Origin: a phage
Sequence record: NC_129898.1
Direction: 5' to 3' (one strand)
DNA length: 64,000 nt
The notes beneath the pieces were generated by a model. The model saw only the letters and a program-made list of their open reading frames with translations. It had not been told where the DNA came from and made no database searches. Below, piece after piece: positions 33,982 through 41,300 of this stretch (positions are counted from its first letter, which is position 1; each line of letters starts with the position of its first letter). The position numbers were made by a program, and so were the translations under genes.

Positions 33982-34743
33982 TTACAGTTCCATAAAGTTT
34001 TCTACGATGTCAATGAATGTTTTATCAGAGAAAGCGTCAACCGCCCCGTTAAACCAAACTGGGATGCCGCGATCCTCATACTGGTAAATGTCACTACGTG
34101 AAATGCCATTCTCCCCTAAATGCTGTGAGTCGTATTTGTTAACGATCAGTAGTTTAGTCCCCTTATTACAGGCAGGGAATAGCTCCCAGTTAAAATTGAT
34201 AACTGTGTTGGAGCACCCTACAAGGATAACCATATCATTGCTCGTCAGAGAAGTCAACAGGTCATACATGTCTACATACTTTGGAGCTACTTCTCCGAAG
34301 AACACTACATTAGGCTTGACCCAAGTATACTCGCTTGCATCTACCTCAGAGTATCCAATGTCTTTAATGACGTCATTCCCTTCATCATCCTCGTAGACTA
34401 TTTCTGGCAAATATCCGTGGACATGTAAAATATCTTCATGTTTTACACCAGCACGCTCCAGCAAATCATCTACATTGGTGGTCAGGTTGATCACACGACC
34501 AGACCAGCGGGAATACCATTCAGCTATCCGGAGATGTGCAAGGTTAGGATCAACACTGCCCAGAGCTACACGCCGTGCATTATAAAAGTCATGCACCTTA
34601 TAGTAGTTCTTGGCAAAGGTGTGGATGTTACACACCTCATCGATGCTGAAATTCTCCCACATTGCAGTGCCACCAGATCGGAAAGTTGGGATACCAGATT
34701 CAGCGCTCAAACCAGCACCGGAGATAATGATCAGTCGTCGCAT
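33982..34743 (-). CDS. Sir2-family (sirtuin-like) NAD-binding protein lacking zinc-ribbon cysteines
   Basis: GAGLSAESGIPTFR, PNLAHxxIA, TTNVDDL and HG motifs in canonical order; no CxxC...CxxC after the HG. Confidence 0.7.
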   Translation of the reverse strand: MRRLIIISGAGLSAESGIPTFRSGGTAMWENFSIDEVCNIHTFAKNYYKVHDFYNARRVALGSVDPNLAHLRIAEWYSRWSGRVINLTTNVDDLLERAGVKHEDILHVHGYLPEIVYEDDEGNDVIKDIGYSEVDASEYTWVKPNVVFFGEVAPKYVDMYDLLTSLTSNDMVILVGCSNTVINFNWELFPACNKGTKLLIVNKYDSQHLGENGISRSDIYQYEDRGIPVWFNGAVDAFSDKTFIDIVENFMEL

Positions 34744-34751
34744 AAGTGTCC

Positions 34752-35102
34752 TCAGTAGATGTTTTGTTTAATTTCTATTCCAAACTTTTTAAACGAGTCA
34801 GCAGCAAGCATGAATTTACGAGCCGCTGATGGGTTAGAAGTATGCACGAAAATCTTCACGTTGTCAACTACAGGAGGCTTACCAAATACAAATTTTTCCT
34901 CCAGTATGCAGAAGCAATCGTATCCTTCAAAAATTTCTCCCAAGTCGCTGTCAAAATGCCACTCAGAAACGCGTCTATATAGCTTTCCCTTGTCATTAAT
35001 GAAATCCATGAACTCAGAAGAACTCTTTAGCCAAAGAGCGTCTGGGAGCCCATAATTTGACGGATCTCTCAAATCATCTAGCCACACAATCAGCTTCTTC
35101 AT
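34752..35102 (-). CDS. hypothetical protein
   Basis: 116-aa ORF. Confidence 0.45.
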   Translation of the reverse strand: MKKLIVWLDDLRDPSNYGLPDALWLKSSSEFMDFINDKGKLYRRVSEWHFDSDLGEIFEGYDCFCILEEKFVFGKPPVVDNVKIFVHTSNPSAARKFMLAADSFKKFGIEIKQNIY

Positions 35103-36034
35103 TGCATATAGTCCTCGTTGTGGAAATAGCAGTCAAGTATCTCACGGCGTTCCTGCTCCAGGAGGCAATTCCACACATCTTCTGTGTAGTTTCTACGAAT
35201 GAAGTTTACCATGCCGTAAAACTCTTCGTCAACACGTTTAAAGATATCATCATCCCAAATCTTCCAAGCTCTACCCCTCATTACGACCTTCCGTGCCAGA
35301 TAGTAGGGAGACTTGATCTTTAGTTGCAGGTCATAAGGGTAGTAAGGCTTACGGATCATATACCCTTCGCCCCTTGTTTCTGCAGCCAACTCTTTTGCAT
35401 AGCTGAACGGAATTTCACGCACAGTGTGAGGACGTTTTGCACCAAGGTATTTGGCAATACCGTCTAAAGCTGCTTCTGGTAGCATTATTCCAGAATCATT
35501 GTATCGGCAACCGATCAAATAGGCACCATGATCTTCCTGAACAATATGCGGGTCTGAAGGGTGACAAATTTCAAACATGAATGTCATGTTTTCATGGCCC
35601 ATAACCTTCTTGATAAGATCTAAATTACCACATTGCTCCTGGATTGTTTCCTTTGCGAGGTTACAATATGGAGAATCAAGAGACCCTGTTGTTGAGAACA
35701 ACAGTTCACCTTTGTGAGATGATACCACACCAAGGAATCCGTTCTTTTTCTCTACCGCCGTCACAAGTTTATTGTCAGGCAGGTTGGTGGAATTTTCTCC
35801 CAAGTTAAACACTTTTGTGAAGGGCCATGCCACAACATTTCCTTCATTACCGACAACAATTCCTCGGCACTCTAGTAAACGCGGAGACAAATGCCATAGA
35901 TTGTTGTAAAATACTTTTCTGGCATATTTATAGATCTTTAACCCAAGATCTGGATAATACCGACTGGTTACAAGACCTTTATTCACTAAATCATCTGCAT
36001 TAAAATACTTCATCATACATTCCTCGTTTGTCAT
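35099..36034 (-). CDS. ligase-family nucleotidyltransferase, probable RNA ligase
   Basis: Motif I VEKKNGF (KxNG, no Arg at +5), motif IV EGYMIRK, motif V LKIKSP; 311 aa; a separate DNA ligase exists at 31342..32625. Confidence 0.55.
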   Translation of the reverse strand: MTNEECMMKYFNADDLVNKGLVTSRYYPDLGLKIYKYARKVFYNNLWHLSPRLLECRGIVVGNEGNVVAWPFTKVFNLGENSTNLPDNKLVTAVEKKNGFLGVVSSHKGELLFSTTGSLDSPYCNLAKETIQEQCGNLDLIKKVMGHENMTFMFEICHPSDPHIVQEDHGAYLIGCRYNDSGIMLPEAALDGIAKYLGAKRPHTVREIPFSYAKELAAETRGEGYMIRKPYYPYDLQLKIKSPYYLARKVVMRGRAWKIWDDDIFKRVDEEFYGMVNFIRRNYTEDVWNCLLEQERREILDCYFHNEDYMQ

Positions 36035-36077
36035 TTTGTCACTCTATCTTGCCACACAAATAAACTAGTGTCAACAC

Positions 36078-36106
36078 TTGAAATGAACAAAAGAGTTATG
36101 TATACT
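36078..36106 (+). promoter_or_regulatory. sigma70-like promoter for the plus-strand kinase operon
   Basis: TTGAAA (36078-36083), 17-nt spacer, TATACT (36101-36106); RBS GGAGG before ATG 36135. Confidence 0.55.
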
Positions 36107-36134
36107 ACCATTAAAATTAAAACGGAGGATTACT

Positions 36135-36545
36135 ATGTCTAAAATGCTATATATCGTGCGTGGTCTACCAGGTTCTGGCAAATCAACACTGGCAAATGCA
36201 CTATCTTTAGAGGGGCTGTACCCACATTTTGAGAACGACATGTTCTGGTACGACGACGATGGAAATTACAACTGGGATGCAAGTAAAGTAACACTTGCAG
36301 CAAAATGGTGCAAAGATAACGTAGAAGATATGATGCGTATGGGATACGACCGTGTCGTGGTAAGTAATACGTTTACAAAAGAAAAACATGTGCAAGAATA
36401 TGTTGACATGGCAATCAGTCATGGGTATAGTTATACTGTGATCGTGGTTGAAAACCGCCACGGTAATAAGAGCATTCATGATGTTCCAGATAGGGTTGTG
36501 GACCGTATGGAGCGTGAGCTTAAAAACTGCATTAAACTAAAATGA
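36135..36545 (+). CDS. P-loop kinase (polynucleotide-kinase-like)
   Basis: Walker A GLPGSGKST near the N-terminus; 136 aa; operonic with a metallophosphoesterase. Confidence 0.6.
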   Translation: MSKMLYIVRGLPGSGKSTLANALSLEGLYPHFENDMFWYDDDGNYNWDASKVTLAAKWCKDNVEDMMRMGYDRVVVSNTFTKEKHVQEYVDMAISHGYSYTVIVVENRHGNKSIHDVPDRVVDRMERELKNCIKLK

Positions 36546-36552
36546 GGGATGT

Positions 36553-37107
36553 ATGAAATATTTTGTAACAAGCGATACACACTTTCTCCACCAGCGAGTC
36601 ATGGAGTTTGATTCATGTCAAAAACACAGATCTCAGTATGATCACAATCTTGACAGTATGAACGAAGGAATCATTGCAGAGTGGAACTCTGTTGTATCAC
36701 CAGAAGACACTGTGTTTCACTTGGGCGATATTGCATGCACTAAGGATAAGAATATCAACAACTTATTTCCAGATATTCTAAATATGTTGAACGGACATAT
36801 TATTCTTGTTCGTGGTAACCATGACACAAGGACGACTGTCAGAATTATGAAAGAGTTCGGTAATGAGGTTGTAGATTATTACGAGCTTCGCCACAACAAG
36901 AATTTGATCTGTATGAGCCATTACCAGTTTGCAAAGTGGAACAGAAAGCCTCACGGATCAGTCCAACTGTTCGGTCATGCTCACGGAACCACACAGCAGT
37001 TGTTTGGCAGGCAGTTTGATGTCGGTTGGGATGTGTGGGGGAGACTCTTACCATTAGAAGAGGCATACCGTATTGCAATGAGTCTTGCTATTGACAGCGG
37101 GGAGTAA
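36553..37107 (+). CDS. calcineurin-like metallophosphoesterase
   Basis: SDTHF (DxH), LGDI (GD), GNHD, GHAHG motifs in order. Confidence 0.75.
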   Translation: MKYFVTSDTHFLHQRVMEFDSCQKHRSQYDHNLDSMNEGIIAEWNSVVSPEDTVFHLGDIACTKDKNINNLFPDILNMLNGHIILVRGNHDTRTTVRIMKEFGNEVVDYYELRHNKNLICMSHYQFAKWNRKPHGSVQLFGHAHGTTQQLFGRQFDVGWDVWGRLLPLEEAYRIAMSLAIDSGE

Positions 37108-39610: not shown

Positions 39611-39949
39611 ATGGCGGATACAACTAAAAAGCGTCGCCGTAGAGGCAGACCTCTGAAAGAGGAGTCCAACGCCATTCAGCTAGAGAAGAACATTCTTGAT
39701 ATGAAGGAATCTTTTATAGCGATGGTTCCAGAAGCTCACAAAGTTTTAAGAGAGCTGATGTTGGATCCGAAAACCAAGCAAAATATTCGTCAAAGCATTG
39801 CAGAGTATGTTCTTGATAAGGCAGACCGAATGCAGGAAGAATATGATGAGATGTTTGGTGAAGAGGAAGAGGTGGTAGTAGAAGAGGCTGAAAAACCAGC
39901 ACCTTTTATGCCATTTACCACAGAAATACAGCCTGTTAGCAATAGCTAA
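39611..39949 (+). CDS. hypothetical protein with Arg-rich DNA-binding N-terminus
   Basis: ATG 39611 with GGAGG RBS; MADTTKKRRRRGRPLK then acidic C-terminus; possible small terminase or regulator. Confidence 0.5.
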   Translation: MADTTKKRRRRGRPLKEESNAIQLEKNILDMKESFIAMVPEAHKVLRELMLDPKTKQNIRQSIAEYVLDKADRMQEEYDEMFGEEEEVVVEEAEKPAPFMPFTTEIQPVSNS

Positions 39950-40045
39950 AATATTTTCTTGACAAACTTTGCTTAACAGTGTAATATTGTAAACATGGTC
40001 TCCCACCTTTTCTGGCGGCTAAGGTGTAAAAGAAAGCCACCCAGT

Positions 40046-40117
40046 GCCCTGTTAGCTTAGTGGATAAAGCAGCGGCCTTCTAAGCCGTTGACACTGGTTC
40101 GAGTCCAGTACGGGGTG
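40046..40117 (+). tRNA. tRNA-Arg (anticodon TCT)
   Basis: Acceptor GCCCTGT/ACGGGGT, D-stem GCTT/AAGC, anticodon loop CTTCTAA, T-loop TTCGAGT, CCA encoded. Confidence 0.8.
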
Positions 40118-40250
40118 CCAAGTTCTTTTTAATGTAGCTTACTTTAGCAGAGTAAATCTTCGGCAAGTGGCGGTAACCACTTTACCGATACCTCATAGTT
40201 AGTGGTGAGAACACTAGCTATTTTAAAAAGAATTTAAATATTAGTATTTA

Positions 40251-40335
40251 GGTGAGTTAATTCCGTAGGGGTAGCGGGGCAGACTGTAAATCTGTTATCA
40301 TTGCGATTCGGGTGGTTCGACTCCATCACTCACCA
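40251..40335 (+). tRNA. tRNA-Tyr (anticodon GTA), long variable arm
   Basis: Acceptor GGTGAGT/ACTCACC, anticodon loop CTGTAAA, T-loop TTCGACT, discriminator A, CCA encoded. Confidence 0.75.
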
Positions 40336-40452
40336 CCAAATTTATATTTTTAAATGCATAAATCATACAGATAATGGCATTGATATTTATCGTCGTTTAT
40401 ACTAGTCACTAACTGCTCGAAAATCAGTGTCATTATCAGTATTGTTTATAAA

Positions 40453-40540
40453 AGAGGGTAGGGAGCAATGGTGCTCAAGCGGTCTTGAAAACCGTCCCGT
40501 TGAGGATGACTCGATGATGGTTCGATTCCATTATCCTCTG
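40453..40540 (+). tRNA. tRNA-Ser (anticodon TGA), long variable arm
   Basis: Acceptor AGAGGGT/ATCCTCT, anticodon stem GCGGT/ACCGT with loop CTTGAAA, T-loop TTCGATT, discriminator G. Confidence 0.7.
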
Positions 40541-40640
40541 CCATATTGTTGACCTTGTAATTAAGCGAAAGCCGGAAGCAGAACCGGATTATCAAATGTT
40601 ACAGTCGTCATCGCCGACTAGCCACATGGTCAACATATTG

Positions 40641-40737
40641 CGCTAGGTAAGCCCTTTGGCAAGGGCGAGGATTTTTAATCCTGAAAATAGACGAGGTAGT
40701 CGTTGAATACATAGATGGTTCGATTCCATCACCTAGC
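40641..40737 (+). tRNA. atypical 97-nt tRNA-like element (anticodon loop TTTTTAA, possibly UUU)
   Basis: Perfect acceptor GCTAGGT/ACCTAGC, D-stem GCCC/GGGC, canonical T-arm GATGG-TTCGATT-CCATC, but ~30-nt variable region with ACGA-GGTAG-TCGT hairpin. Confidence 0.35.
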
Positions 40738-40743
40738 ACCTTT

Positions 40744-40816
40744 TGCTGATGTAGCACAATTGGCAGTGCAATTGATTTGTAATCAATAGGTTGCAGGTTC
40801 AAGTCCTGCCATCAGC
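40744..40816 (+). tRNA. tRNA-Thr (anticodon TGT)
   Basis: Acceptor GCTGATG/CATCAGC, D-stem GCAC/GTGC, anticodon stem ATTGA/TCAAT with loop TTTGTAA, T-loop TTCAAGT. Confidence 0.8.
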
Positions 40817-40820
40817 ACCA

Positions 40821-40892
40821 TGGCCCTGTAGCTGGAAGGTTCAAGCAAGCGACTCATAATCGCCAGACGGTGGTTCAATTCCACCCAGGGCC
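40821..40892 (+). tRNA. tRNA-Met or Ile2 (anticodon CAT), elongator-type
   Basis: Acceptor GGCCCTG/CAGGGCC with paired 1:72, anticodon loop CTCATAA, T-loop TTCAATT. Confidence 0.7.
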
Positions 40893-40907
40893 ACCAAATT
40901 ATAAATA

Positions 40908-40981
40908 CTCCGCGTAGCTCAGCTTGGTAGAGCGCCTGATTTGGGATCAGGAGGTCGAGTGTTCGAATCACTCCGTGGAGA
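40908..40981 (+). tRNA. tRNA-Pro (anticodon TGG)
   Basis: Acceptor CTCCGCG/CGTGGAG (C1:G72), D-arm GCTCAGCTTGGTAGAGC, anticodon stem CCTGA/TCAGG with loop TTTGGGA, T-loop TTCGAAT. Confidence 0.8.
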
Positions 40982-41030
40982 CCACCTTTAGTTATACTTT
41001 AAACATATACACACAAAAGGAACCTTTAAA

Positions 41031-41300
41031 ATGTATACACTTAAAATTGTAGAGCGTGTAAATCCAACCCATACTGTAGATTTTCGTGACGATTTCAATC
41101 CTCTGGCTGTAAATCTTCGAGAGTCATATCATGAACTCAGCTGCGATGCAGTGGTGGTCTTTTTTGAAGACAACTCTGAAGGGGCGGTAGCTTGTGTTGT
41201 TGATAGTGAGCAGAAGTTTTATATTTACAGAGATGTAGATGCATACTTGATGAATGAAAATGCAGTTACTGTTAGAATCATCCACCGAGTGCCTCGATAA
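41031..41300 (+). CDS. hypothetical protein
   Basis: 89-aa ORF with AAAGGAAC RBS-like upstream. Confidence 0.45.
   Translation: MYTLKIVERVNPTHTVDFRDDFNPLAVNLRESYHELSCDAVVVFFEDNSEGAVACVVDSEQKFYIYRDVDAYLMNENAVTVRIIHRVPR

What the first reader, a model, noticed from the sequence alone, without database searches (positions are those of the whole stretch)
40641..40737. Atypical 97-nt tRNA-like element inside the tRNA cluster
A perfect 7-bp acceptor stem (GCTAGGT/ACCTAGC), a D-stem (GCCC/GGGC) and a canonical T-arm (GATGG-TTCGATT-CCATC) are present, but the anticodon region is irregular (loop TTTTTAA with a mismatched closing pair) and a ~30-nt insertion carries its own hairpin (ACGA-GGTAG-TCGT). 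It could be a tRNA with an unusual extra arm, a tRNA-derived stable RNA of the kind T4-like phages carry in their tRNA regions, or a decoy/mimic.
Basis: seen in the sequence. Interest (0 to 1): 0.45.

Follow-up and report, generated by a model that had tools for sequence, protein, structure and literature searches.

The report
Conserved five-armed tRNA-like RNA gene
This is a real gene for an oversized, five-armed tRNA look-alike kept by a whole subfamily of rV5-like phages; its tRNA body is strictly conserved, but its anticodon is not, so it is probably a tRNA mimic and not an ordinary decoder.

Summary
The window is an rV5-like Vequintavirus. The 97-nt element folds unaided into an acceptor stem, D arm, anticodon-type arm, extra hairpin and T arm (z = -4.2). 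It passes the Rfam tRNA threshold weakly (37.5 bits; its neighbours score 60-77).

Homologues occur in all five Vequintavirinae genera sampled and in one N4-like phage. In 25 distinct sequences, all 500 stem base-pair cells pair. Ten of the 20 pairs show compensatory changes, and the elbow pair G19:C56 switches to U19:A56.

The invariant parts are A8, U14-U16, G26, and the single-stranded flanks GAAAA and AAUACAUA around the extra hairpin. The anticodon loop (5-8 nt, different sequences), the hairpin and the discriminator all vary. That is the reverse of what a decoding tRNA shows.

In the rV5 lineage the anticodon arm copies E. coli tRNA-Lys(UUU) at 10 of 11 positions and the discriminator is A73. 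An RNA-repair gene cluster lies 3.5 kb upstream.

Best reading: a processed, stable tRNA mimic, here Lys-like, used in conflicts over tRNA. This function is inferred, not shown. It is not homologous to T4 rnaC/rnaD. Public records label it inconsistently or not at all.

The parts
40642..40738 (+). The whole tRNA-like RNA gene: 97 nt from G1 to the discriminator A73-equivalent.
   Evidence: ARAGORN; Rfam tRNA 37.5 bits; family covariance model R1 115 bits; cloverleaf minimum-energy fold, z = -4.2.
40642..40648 (+). Acceptor stem, 5' strand (GCTAGGT). It pairs with 40731-40737.
   Evidence: All 7 pairs are paired in 25 of 25 sequences, and 4 pairs show double-sided compensatory changes.
40649..40650 (+). 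Connector A8 A9. A8 is invariant where canonical tRNAs have U8.
   Evidence: Alignments A2 and A5.
40651..40666 (+). D arm: GCCC / TTTGGCAA / GGGC. It can extend to a 6-bp stem (GCCCTT/AAGGGC) with the 4-nt loop TGGC. U14-U16 are invariant, and GG is the G18 G19 equivalent.
   Evidence: 3 of the 4 stem pairs covary. RNAalifold and RNAfold both give the 6-bp version. The second G covaries with T-loop position 3: G:C in 18 sequences, U:A in 7, none broken.
40667..40683 (+). Anticodon-type arm: G26, AGGA(T), loop, (A)TCCT, G44. It reads as 4 bp plus the 7-nt loop TTTTTAA (40672-40678), or as 5 bp plus the 5-nt loop TTTTA. Positions G30-C40 match E. coli tRNA-Lys(UUU) at 10 of 11 positions, followed by C41 where tRNA-Lys has A41.
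   Evidence: Stem covariation. Loop sequence and length differ between genera. The E. coli tRNA-Lys sequence was confirmed.
40683..40689 (+). 5' flank of the extra region, GAAAATA. G and AAAA are invariant across the family.
40690..40704 (+). Extra (variable-region) hairpin GACGA-GGTAG-TCGTT. This is the lineage-specific, swappable module.
   Evidence: A hairpin folds at this position in nearly every member, with different sequences. An A-U to G-C compensatory change separates the rV5 and Av-05 copies. FENT2 and KpS8 share the same body but carry different hairpin classes.
40705..40713 (+). 3' flank of the extra region, GAATACATA. AATACATA is invariant at 8 of 8 positions in 25 sequences.
   Evidence: entropy 0.00 bits, more conserved than the T loop.
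40714..40730 (+). T arm GATGG-TTCGATT-CCATC. The window copy has A50-U64 where most relatives have G50.U64.
40731..40740 (+). Acceptor stem 3' strand ACCTAGC, discriminator A (40738), then CC (40739-40740). The third base of CCA is not encoded here, but it is encoded (TCCA) in the Seuna-, Mydo- and Henunavirus copies.
39959..39987 (+). Sigma-70-like promoter (TTGACA, 17 nt, TAATAT) upstream of the tRNA cluster. It is the likely start of the polycistronic precursor that contains the element.
   Evidence: This is a consensus match only.
40046..40984 (+). The tRNA cluster that contains the element, in order: Arg(UCU), Tyr(GUA), Ser(UGA), the element, Thr(UGU), Met/Ile(CAU), Pro(UGG).
33982..37107 (.). 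Context, not part of the RNA: a predicted RNA-repair gene cluster. It holds SIR2 (33982-34743, -), cREC (34752-35102, -), an Rnl1-type RNA ligase (35099-36034, -), a P-loop polynucleotide-kinase-like protein (36135-36545, +) and a metallophosphoesterase (36553-37107, +).
   Evidence: Pfam scan; annotation of the relative EmilHeitz; this neighbourhood is described for phage V5 in PMC9503650.

Best explanation
Window 40642-40738 encodes a conserved, non-canonical tRNA-like RNA. It belongs to a family found in the tRNA clusters of essentially all Vequintavirinae.

Shown:
- The sequence folds into a tRNA L-shape scaffold with a 7-bp acceptor stem, D arm, anticodon-type arm and canonical T arm. The D-loop/T-loop elbow pair is preserved.
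- It also carries a 31-nt extra region made of two invariant A-rich single strands around a lineage-specific hairpin.
- The scaffold and flanks are under strong purifying selection. The anticodon loop, hairpin and discriminator are not.

Inferred:
- It is co-transcribed with the flanking tRNAs. RNase P and 3' trimming plus CCA completion release it as a stable RNA of about 100 nt.
- It works as a tRNA mimic and not as a routine decoder. The tRNA body supplies maturation, stability and recognition by tRNA-binding proteins. The anticodon-type hairpin and the extra hairpin are exchangeable specificity modules.
- In the rV5 lineage the anticodon arm imitates E. coli tRNA-Lys(UUU), the tRNA most often attacked by E. 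coli anticodon nucleases. The most likely role is therefore a decoy, or a nuclease-refractory stand-in, in tRNA-targeted phage-host conflict, working alongside the phage's RNA-repair genes.

Separate confidences: a real, conserved, structured RNA gene, about 0.95; not an ordinary decoding tRNA, about 0.6; a role in tRNA-targeting conflict, about 0.35.
For: Structure:
- The Rfam tRNA hit is above threshold.
- The minimum-energy fold is the cloverleaf, z = -4.2.
- Covariance model R1 separates 25 distinct family members (83-115 bits) from ordinary tRNAs (33 bits or less).
- On alignment A5, 500 of 500 stem cells pair and 10 of 20 pairs have double-sided changes. The covariation score is 0.462 against 0.172 in shuffles (0 of 500 reach it). 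With the partners slid, only 29-45% of cells pair.
- The tertiary pair G19:C56 switches to U19:A56 in 7 sequences and is never broken.
- RNAalifold finds the same arms independently.

Not a decoder:
- The loop reads UUUUUAA, UUUAUAA, YAUCAAA (A at position 33), CCAUCAG, or one of five different 8-nt forms.
- Positions 32 and 38 can pair in 22 of 25 sequences, leaving 5-6-nt loops.
- The discriminator varies between A, U and C, with entropy 1.16 bits. AAUACAUA is 8 of 8 invariant.
- The Rfam tRNA model fails to reach threshold in the other genera.
- Mydo- and Seuna-type clusters already hold about 24 canonical tRNAs, including Lys(UUU), Lys(CUU) and Gly(UCC), beside the element.

Lys mimicry and conflict context:
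- The element's G30-C40 is GAUUUUUAAUC; E. coli tRNA-Lys has GACUUUUAAUC.
- It has C41 where tRNA-Lys has A41. PARIS AriB cuts between positions 40 and 41, and an A41C change substantially reduces cleavage (PMC12409363).
- A73 occurs only in the UUU-bearing lineage.
- The rV5-type cluster has no canonical tRNA-Lys.
- An Rnl1 ligase, kinase, phosphoesterase, cREC and SIR2 cluster lies 3.5 kb upstream. PMC9503650 predicts it to be a tRNA-repair system.

Modularity: FENT2 and KpS8 have identical bodies but different hairpin classes.

Not host-derived: no match in 5,426 E. coli genomes.
Against: - No expression, processing, aminoacylation or phenotype data were found (literature searches).
- In the rV5 and Avunavirus lineages the loop can be read as a perfectly canonical 7-nt anticodon loop (U33, A37, A38). 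Decoding is therefore not excluded for the window copy.
- The resemblance to the tRNA-Lys anticodon arm covers only 11 nt, and most of it follows automatically from having a UUU anticodon.
- The RNA-repair cluster is 3.5 kb away and is not demonstrably linked to the element.
- Loop differences between genera could be drift in a region that simply does not matter. That would fit a scaffold or spacer role with no link to defence.
- Phage V18 has lost the element through a deletion and is still a viable isolate.
- Alignment A5 was fitted to the model structure, which inflates pairing counts somewhat. The MAFFT alignment A2 and RNAalifold agree with it.
Confidence: 0.4

Rival explanations
1. It is a working, if odd, decoding tRNA. 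On this view the rV5 copy is a tRNA-Lys(UUU) with a giant extra arm. LysRS charges it through UUU and A73, and it supplies Lys decoding when host tRNA-Lys is destroyed. The unusual body makes it resistant to anticodon nucleases, as with the T5 tRNA-Lys variant.
For: - The 7-nt reading UUUUUAA has U33, UUU, A37 and A38.
- A73 is present only in this lineage.
- The element passes the Rfam tRNA threshold.
- Several GenBank records call it tRNA-Lys.
- rV5-type clusters lack any other tRNA-Lys, whereas large-cluster relatives have one.
- C41 replaces A41 at the PARIS cleavage site.
- Phage tRNAs acting as nuclease-resistant surrogates are an established idea (PMC10264068, PMC12409363).
Against: - The 7-nt reading leaves only a 4-bp anticodon stem, or a G.G mismatch with no position 26.
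- A8, U14 and U15 replace the near-universal U8, A14 and R15.
- The extra region is 31 nt with long unpaired flanks, unlike any class II tRNA.
- Orthologues 92% identical (Avunavirus) carry UAU with U73 or C73. More distant ones have A33 or 5-, 6- or 8-nt loops. Decoding therefore cannot be the conserved function of the family.
Confidence: 0.25
2. It is a tRNA-scaffolded non-coding RNA whose business end is the extra region. The invariant GAAAA and AAUACAUA strands plus the hairpin would bind a phage or host protein or RNA unrelated to tRNA-targeting defence, such as a regulator or an RNA chaperone or ribonuclease partner. The tRNA body would serve only for processing and stability.
For: - The 3' flank is the most conserved segment of the molecule, 8 of 8 invariant.
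- Hairpin modules swap between otherwise identical bodies.
- A second hairpin class has a conserved large loop, GAAYUAACAGUAC, shared by very different bodies.
- T4 rnaC has a comparable layout: an A-rich linker, a hairpin, a linker and then the T arm.
- B. cereus tRNA-Other is a precedent for a regulatory pseudo-tRNA (PMC3399842).
Against: - No partner was identified.
- Sites complementary to AAUACAUAG are not enriched in the window: 15 found against 17.8 expected.
- The invariant flanks may simply be tertiary-structure elements of the tRNA core. They lie where positions 44-48 normally contact the D arm.
Confidence: 0.2
3. It is a decaying tRNA pseudogene, or merely a processing spacer in the polycistronic tRNA precursor, with no function of its own.
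For: - Annotation is inconsistent: tRNA-OTHER, tRNA-???, tRNA-TERM, tRNA-Lys, or nothing.
- It has been lost in phage V18.
- Other irregular tRNA-like genes sit next to it in relatives.
Against: - All stem cells are paired in 25 diverged sequences, with 10 pairs changed on both sides and a covarying tertiary pair.
- The single-stranded motifs are invariant across five genera.
- It was retained after transfer into an N4-like phage.

A pseudogene would accumulate stem-breaking changes.
Confidence: 0.05
4. The conservation reflects a DNA-level or transcription signal. Examples would be an internal promoter in the AATACATA region, or an attenuator formed by the D-arm hairpin followed by the T-run.
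For: The terminator scan flags GCCCTTTGGCAAGGGC followed by GAGGATTTTT at 40651-40666.
Against: - The T-run exists only in the rV5 and Avunavirus lineages.
- Compensatory changes in four helices and in the elbow pair are signatures of RNA structure, not of a DNA site.
- The promoter scan finds nothing inside the element.
Confidence: 0.03

Closest known systems
Canonical bacterial or phage tRNA (Rfam RF00005), class II long-arm type
   Same: It has a 7-bp acceptor stem and a 5-bp T stem with a TTCGATT loop. It has G18 G19 in the D loop, with the G19:C56 elbow pair maintained. CC(A) follows the discriminator. It sits head-to-tail in a tRNA operon. In the window it scores above the Rfam threshold.
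   Different: - A8, U14 and U15 replace U8, A14 and R15.
- The anticodon arm is one base pair, or one nucleotide, short.
- Loop length and sequence are not conserved among orthologues.
- The extra region is 31-40 nt, with 7 and 9 unpaired invariant nucleotides at its base. Class II tRNAs have 0-2.
- Members in other genera fall below the Rfam threshold.
Phage T4 stable RNAs, species 1 (rnaC) and species 2 (rnaD)
   Same: They are non-tRNA stable RNAs encoded inside a phage tRNA cluster. rnaC has an acceptor-like stem, a canonical T arm, and an extra hairpin preceded by an A-rich linker. Their function is still unknown.
   Different: There is no detectable homology: family model R1 gives 13.5 bits for rnaC and does not report rnaD. 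rnaC has one long arm in place of separate D and anticodon arms. The phage lineage is also different (Straboviridae, not Vequintavirinae).
Nuclease-resistant phage tRNA surrogates, such as T5 tRNA-Lys(UUU) against PARIS and T5 tRNA-Tyr against retron Ec78 (PMC12409363, PMC10264068)
   Same: It is phage-encoded and has a Lys(UUU)-type anticodon arm. It carries a substitution at position 41 next to the AriB cleavage site. The phage also carries RNA-repair genes.
   Different: Those surrogates are otherwise canonical, demonstrably decoding tRNAs. This RNA has a non-canonical core and a giant extra region, and its relatives carry non-Lys or non-functional loops. Resistance or decoy activity has not been tested.
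tRNA-Sec (Rfam RF01852)
   Same: It is similar in length (about 95-105 nt) and has a long extra arm. The D arm can form 6 bp with a 4-nt loop, and the canonical 8-14 and 15-48 pairs are missing. Henunavirus-type members even carry UCA.
   Different: Its acceptor/T arrangement is 7/5, not 8/5. The discriminator is A, U or C, not G73. The window copy has UUU, not UCA. The tRNA-Sec model does not hit the element.
Allo-tRNAs and regulatory pseudo-tRNAs (B. cereus tRNA-Other)
   Same: These are tRNA-shaped RNAs with long extra arms whose anticodons vary freely (allo-tRNAs), or that do not act in translation (tRNA-Other).
   Different: Allo-tRNAs have 8/4 or 9/3 acceptor/T arrangements and SerRS identity elements. 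tRNA-Other is chromosomal and unrelated in sequence.

Membership tests
Canonical tRNA (RF00005) | Scores at or above the Rfam gathering threshold (29 bits) | tested here: met
   The window element scores 37.5 bits. Orthologues in Seuna-, Mydo- and Henunavirus and in L039 do not reach the threshold.
Canonical tRNA (RF00005) | 7-bp acceptor stem, 5-bp T stem with a T-Psi-C loop, and the G18 G19 to Psi55 C56 elbow | tested here: met
   All pairs are kept in 25 sequences. G19:C56 covaries to U19:A56.
Canonical tRNA (RF00005) | 5-bp anticodon stem closing a 7-nt loop with U33, and a purine at position 37 | tested here: inconclusive
   The window copy reads as 4 bp plus UUUUUAA, or as 5 bp plus UUUUA. 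Rfam deletes position 27. Across the family, loops of 5-8 nt occur, and some members have A33.
Canonical tRNA (RF00005) | The anticodon is conserved among orthologues | tested here: not met
   The anticodon reads UUU, UAU, UCA, or UCC/GCC-like 8-nt loops in orthologous positions. The neighbouring tRNA-Thr keeps UGU throughout.
Canonical tRNA (RF00005) | Core tertiary nucleotides U8, A14, R15 and Y48, and a variable region of 4-5 or about 10-24 nt | tested here: not met
   A8, U14 and U15 are invariant, and the extra region is 31-40 nt with long unpaired flanks.
Canonical tRNA (RF00005) | Aminoacylated and used by the ribosome | not testable with these tools
   This needs acid-gel northern blots, a LysRS assay or tRNA sequencing.
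T4-type stable RNAs (rnaC, rnaD) | Sequence and structure homology to T4 rnaC or rnaD | tested here: not met
   Run unfiltered over the T4 tRNA region, model R1 scores rnaC at 13.5 bits and does not report rnaD. Family members score 83 bits or more.
T4-type stable RNAs (rnaC, rnaD) | A non-tRNA stable RNA encoded within a phage tRNA cluster, with a tRNA-like acceptor and T end | tested here: inconclusive
   Location and architecture match. Stability of the RNA has not been tested.
tRNA-Sec (RF01852) | 8/5 acceptor/T arrangement, UCA anticodon and G73 | tested here: not met
   The arrangement is 7/5, with UUU and A73 in the window. The tRNA-Sec model does not hit the element; it weakly hits the neighbouring tRNA-Ser instead.
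tmRNA | A tRNA-like domain plus a tag reading frame, detected by ARAGORN or Rfam | tested here: not met
   ARAGORN makes no tmRNA call. The only Rfam tmRNA hit lies elsewhere and scores 17.4 bits against a threshold of 47.
Y RNA-like YrlA | A match to RF02553, meaning a tRNA-like module within a Ro-binding stem | tested here: not met
   The only hit scores 25 bits against a threshold of 69. It spans the neighbouring Met and Pro tRNAs, not the element.
Allo-tRNA | 12-bp acceptor domain arranged 8/4 or 9/3 (PMC7609411) | tested here: not met
   The arrangement is 7/5 in all 25 sequences.
Type III antitoxin RNA (ToxI-like) | Tandem repeats of a roughly 36-nt unit | tested here: not met
   The element is single-copy. 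The cluster holds no tandem repeats beyond the similarity between T arms.

The most novel reading that the evidence does not exclude
The Vequintavirinae element is a new class of modular tRNA decoy. An invariant, non-decoding tRNA chassis with a reworked core and A-rich flanks would display exchangeable anticodon-type and extra hairpins. Each would be tuned to bait or block a particular host tRNA-targeting immune nuclease or tRNA-modifying toxin: the Lys(UUU) mimic in E. coli phages, other loops in Salmonella, Klebsiella and Erwinia phages. It would work together with the phage's sirtuin-ligase-kinase RNA-repair module.
Probability: 0.15. Interest if true: 0.8.

Novelty: new variant of a known kind. 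Interest (0 to 1): 0.55.

Why it matters
tRNAs have recently emerged as a main battleground between phages and bacterial immunity. Systems that cut tRNAs include PrrC, PARIS, retron-PtuAB, Schlafen and OLD. Known phage counter-measures are RNA repair and canonical surrogate tRNAs.

This element would add something different. It is an RNA family with a strictly conserved but non-canonical tRNA body, and its anticodon arm and extra hairpin change freely. It is present in about 190 sequenced phages, many of them candidates for therapy against E. coli, Salmonella, Klebsiella, Cronobacter and Erwinia.

At a practical level, it is annotated in five contradictory ways or not at all. It deserves its own covariance model so that genomes stop reporting spurious 'tRNA-Lys' or 'suppressor tRNA' genes. 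It is also a natural example of the tRNA-scaffold principle used to express recombinant RNAs.

Tried and rejected
- **Homology to T4 rnaC/rnaD:** rejected.
- **tmRNA, YrlA and tRNA-Sec membership:** rejected.
- **Host origin or a prophage copy:** no match in 5,426 E. coli genomes. One pattern hit in a Bdellovibrionales genome (L046) and one metagenome hit (L040) were chance T-arm matches with no acceptor stem.
- **Antisense targets for the invariant AAUACAUAG:** no enrichment in the window, 15 found against 17.8 expected.
- **Pairing between the two flanks:** no consistent complementarity. A 5'-AUGU/ACAU-3' pairing appears only in some class B members.
- **Aminoacylation identity sets:** I considered UCC/GCC with U73, G1:C72 and C2:G71 as Gly-like, and UUU with A73 as Lys-like. 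U73 is shared by clades with quite different loops, so the Gly reading is weak. I kept only the rV5 Lys-like coincidence, as a lead.
- **ToxI-like antitoxin, or release by ToxN- or MazF-type cleavage at AAAU or ACA in the flanks:** no repeats and no supporting evidence, so dropped.
- **Internal terminator or promoter:** a lineage-specific consensus match only.
- **Literature:** searches for any description of this RNA in rV5-like phages found nothing.
- **Metagenome and viral-contig pattern scans:** these added only relatives within the same family.
Full report
**What the window is.** The tRNA region (39900-41100) is 98-99% identical to rV5-like Escherichia phages such as ECML-10, ECP26 and JEP1, which belong to the genus Vequintavirus, subfamily Vequintavirinae. 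It is not a T4-like phage. The cluster on the + strand reads:
- Arg(UCU), 40046
- Tyr(GUA), 40251-40335 (found by Rfam only)
- Ser(UGA), 40453-40543 (found by ARAGORN only)
- the 97-nt element
- Thr(UGU)
- Met/Ile(CAU)
- Pro(UGG)

A sigma-70-like promoter match (TTGACA, 17 nt, TAATAT) lies at 39959-39987.

**Checking the observation.** ARAGORN reports 'tRNA-??? (atcc)'. The Rfam tRNA model gives 37.5 bits against a threshold of 29; the four standard neighbours score 60-77. The bare sequence folds into a five-arm cloverleaf at -34.8 kcal/mol, z = -4.2. So the feature is real and non-random.

**Annotation in public records.** The same 97 nt appears as tRNA-OTHER, tRNA-Lys (codon AAA), tRNA-???(atcc), tRNA-TERM, 'hypothetical protein', or is left blank, including in the rV5 reference genome. 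It has therefore been seen by annotation software but never characterised. Six literature searches found no description of it.

**Comparative evidence.**
- BLAST and pattern scans recovered homologues in Vequintavirus, Avunavirus (Av-05, 18-1-2), Seunavirus (PVP-SE1, 4MG, GAP31, NINP13076, FENT2), Mydovirus (KpS8, KNP2), Henunavirus (Hena1, pEp_SNUABM_01) and several metagenomic contigs. In total about 190 phage records match.
- One copy sits in the tRNA cluster of an N4-like Schitoviridae phage, UTK0002. It is 88% identical to the Henunavirus copy, so it was probably transferred horizontally.
- The element has no match in 5,426 complete E. coli genomes.
- A covariance model built from nine members scores 25 distinct family sequences at 83-115 bits and ordinary tRNAs at 33 bits or less.

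**Structure is under selection.**
- On the 25-sequence alignment, all 500 cells of the 20 cloverleaf pairs are standard pairs.
- Ten pairs show changes on both sides.
- The covariation score is 0.462 against 0.172 ± 0.015 in shuffles, with 0 of 500 shuffles reaching it.
- Sliding the partners drops pairing to 29-45%.
- The D-loop/T-loop elbow pair covaries. GG in the D loop goes with TTCGATT in the T loop (18 sequences). GT goes with TTAGATT (7 sequences). There are no exceptions. This is strong evidence for a tRNA-like L shape.
- RNAalifold independently predicts a 7-bp acceptor stem, a 6-bp D stem with a 4-nt loop, a 5-bp anticodon-type stem and the T arm.

A pseudogene is effectively excluded.

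**What is and is not conserved.** Invariant or nearly so:
- A8, where tRNAs have U8
- U14 U15 U16, where tRNAs have A14 and R15
- G26 and G44
- the single strands GAAAA and AAUACAUA (8 of 8 invariant) around the extra hairpin
- the T loop

Variable:
- The anticodon loop. It reads UUUUUAA in rV5, UUUAUAA in Avunavirus and YAUCAAA (with A33) in the Henunavirus type. The Seuna- and Mydovirus copies carry CCAUCAG or one of the 8-nt forms CCAUCCAG, CCAGCCAG, CCUUCCAG, CCCUCCAG or CCCUCAAG.
- The discriminator, which is A, U or C (entropy 1.16 bits).
- The extra hairpin.

Positions 32 and 38 can pair in 22 of 25 sequences (C-G in 11, U-A in 11), leaving 5-6-nt loops. Orthologous neighbours such as tRNA-Thr keep their anticodon throughout. 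This pattern is the reverse of a decoding tRNA. Mydo- and Seuna-type clusters also already hold about 24 canonical tRNAs, including Lys(UUU), Lys(CUU) and Gly(UCC), next to the element.

**The extra region is modular.**
- A hairpin forms at the same place in nearly every member, but with unrelated sequences.
- One class is a simple covarying hairpin. It occurs in rV5, Avunavirus, and the PVP-SE1, 4MG and KpS8 types.
- The other class is a short stem with a conserved large loop, GAAYUAACAGUAC. It occurs in Hena1, FENT2, UTK0002 and several metagenomic contigs.
- FENT2 and KpS8 share identical 5' and 3' bodies but carry different classes. The module has therefore been exchanged.

**Features specific to the window's lineage.**
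- Aligned on the loop, the element reads G30-C40 as GAUUUUUAAUC. E. coli tRNA-Lys(UUU), whose sequence was verified, reads GACUUUUAAUC. That is 10 of 11 identical.
- The next base is C41, where tRNA-Lys has A41.
- According to PMC12409363, PARIS AriB cuts tRNA-Lys(UUU) between positions 40 and 41, and an A41C change substantially reduces cleavage.
- A73, part of the LysRS identity set (my own knowledge), occurs only in this UUU-bearing lineage.
- The rV5-type cluster has no other tRNA-Lys.
- Upstream at 33982-37107 lie genes for SIR2, cREC, an Rnl1-type RNA ligase, a P-loop kinase and a metallophosphoesterase. PMC9503650 describes exactly this neighbourhood in phage V5 and predicts that it repairs RNAs, principally tRNAs, cut by metal-independent nucleases.

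These facts make a role in tRNA-targeted conflict plausible. None of them is a functional test.

**Most likely mechanism.**

*Shown:* this is a conserved, structured, tRNA-shaped RNA gene in a tRNA operon.

*Inferred:*
- It is co-transcribed with the flanking tRNAs, released by RNase P and 3' processing, and completed with CCA. CCA is encoded in most genera; only CC is encoded here.
- It is stable because of its tRNA body.
- It acts as a mimic and not as a routine decoder, with the anticodon-type arm and the extra hairpin as specificity modules.
- In rV5-like phages it would imitate tRNA-Lys(UUU), either soaking up or resisting host anticodon nucleases.

The main rival is that the rV5 copy really is a chargeable, nuclease-resistant tRNA-Lys. 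The 7-nt reading of its loop is canonical, so I cannot exclude this. A third possibility is a scaffolded RNA whose conserved flanks and hairpin bind an unrelated partner.

**Comparison with known families.**
- It works like a tRNA or tRNA mimic, but fails several defining features of canonical tRNAs: the core nucleotides, the anticodon-arm geometry, a conserved anticodon, and the size of the variable region.
- It is not tRNA-Sec (7/5 arrangement, no G73), tmRNA, YrlA or an allo-tRNA.
- It resembles T4 rnaC only in layout and genomic setting, not in sequence.

I therefore file it as a new variant of a known kind: a distinct, unnamed family of phage tRNA-like RNAs.

**Caveats.**
- Alignment A5 was fitted to the model's structure.
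- Many sequences are closely related, so counts of cells are not counts of independent events.
- No expression data exist.
- Phage V18 carries a deletion that fuses the 5' half of tRNA-Tyr to the 3' part of the element. The element is therefore dispensable in at least one propagated isolate.

Noticed in passing
window 33982-37107: A gene cluster for SIR2, a cREC domain protein, an Rnl1-type RNA ligase, a P-loop polynucleotide-kinase-like protein and a metallophosphoesterase. It matches the predicted NAD-dependent RNA-repair neighbourhood described for phage V5 (PMC9503650).
   Followed up: partly
window 40121-40250: About 126 nt between tRNA-Arg and tRNA-Tyr that is absent from many rV5-like phages, whose matches cover only 89% of the query. 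It is bounded by 20-nt inverted arms (40120-40139 and 40216-40235, 85% complementary) and looks like a small insertion or a structured spacer.
   Followed up: no
window 40251-40335 and 40453-40543: Two neighbouring long-arm tRNAs are each missed by one tool. ARAGORN does not call tRNA-Tyr(GUA), which has 3 extra nt before its D stem. tRNA-Ser(UGA) is absent from the Rfam list at gathering threshold, and in the relaxed scan its best match in the tRNA clan is the tRNA-Sec model at 39.4 bits, below that model's threshold of 47.
   Followed up: partly
window 40544-40641 and 40336-40452: Spacers of 98 and 117 nt between tRNAs. They have no tRNA call but do have local hairpins, for example CCGGAAGCAGAACCGG. 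They may be remnants of lost tRNAs or further small RNAs.
   Followed up: no
L006 (Escherichia phage V18) 971-1040: A deletion fuses the 5' half of tRNA-Tyr to the 3' part of the element. tRNA-Ser is also lost, and tRNA-Pro is not annotated there. This shows the element can be lost in a viable isolate.
   Followed up: partly
L038 3313-3387, L026 5383-5457, L017 about 1410-1485, L018 about 1410-1485: In Mydo- and Seuna-type phages, a second irregular tRNA-like gene lies 2 nt upstream of the element. ARAGORN calls it 'tRNA-??? (ga)', and its anticodon loop is 6-7 nt and aberrant. NINP13076 has a normal tRNA-Ile(GAU) at this position. Anticodon-crippled tRNA look-alikes may therefore be a recurring feature of these clusters.
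   Followed up: no
L051 (Salmonella phage vB_SenP_UTK0002, Schitoviridae) 1488-1592: A full-length family member (R1 99.8 bits) sits in the tRNA cluster of an N4-like podovirus. It is 88% identical to the Erwinia Henunavirus copy, which indicates horizontal transfer between unrelated phage families.
   Followed up: partly
Phage records MG0656xx ('Campylobacter phage' C12, C14, A147 and others): Eighteen records labelled as Campylobacter phages are 97-100% identical to rV5-like coliphages across this region. The host labels are probably wrong, or the sequences are contaminants.
   Followed up: no
L033 7862-7934 (metagenome contig ERZ808232 NODE-18, 151.9 kb): This contig carries a family member and also a tRNA with anticodon CUA, which ARAGORN calls 'tRNA-Pyl'. 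It may be an amber suppressor.
   Followed up: no
window 40651-40676: The D-arm hairpin followed by the T-run of the anticodon loop matches an intrinsic-terminator consensus. This holds only in the rV5 and Avunavirus lineages. It could attenuate transcription of the downstream Thr, Met and Pro tRNAs.
   Followed up: no
Record OR062943.1 (Escherichia phage 241Ecol014PP), hit H9: An HNH endonuclease gene is inserted within the otherwise collinear tRNA cluster of this relative.
   Followed up: no
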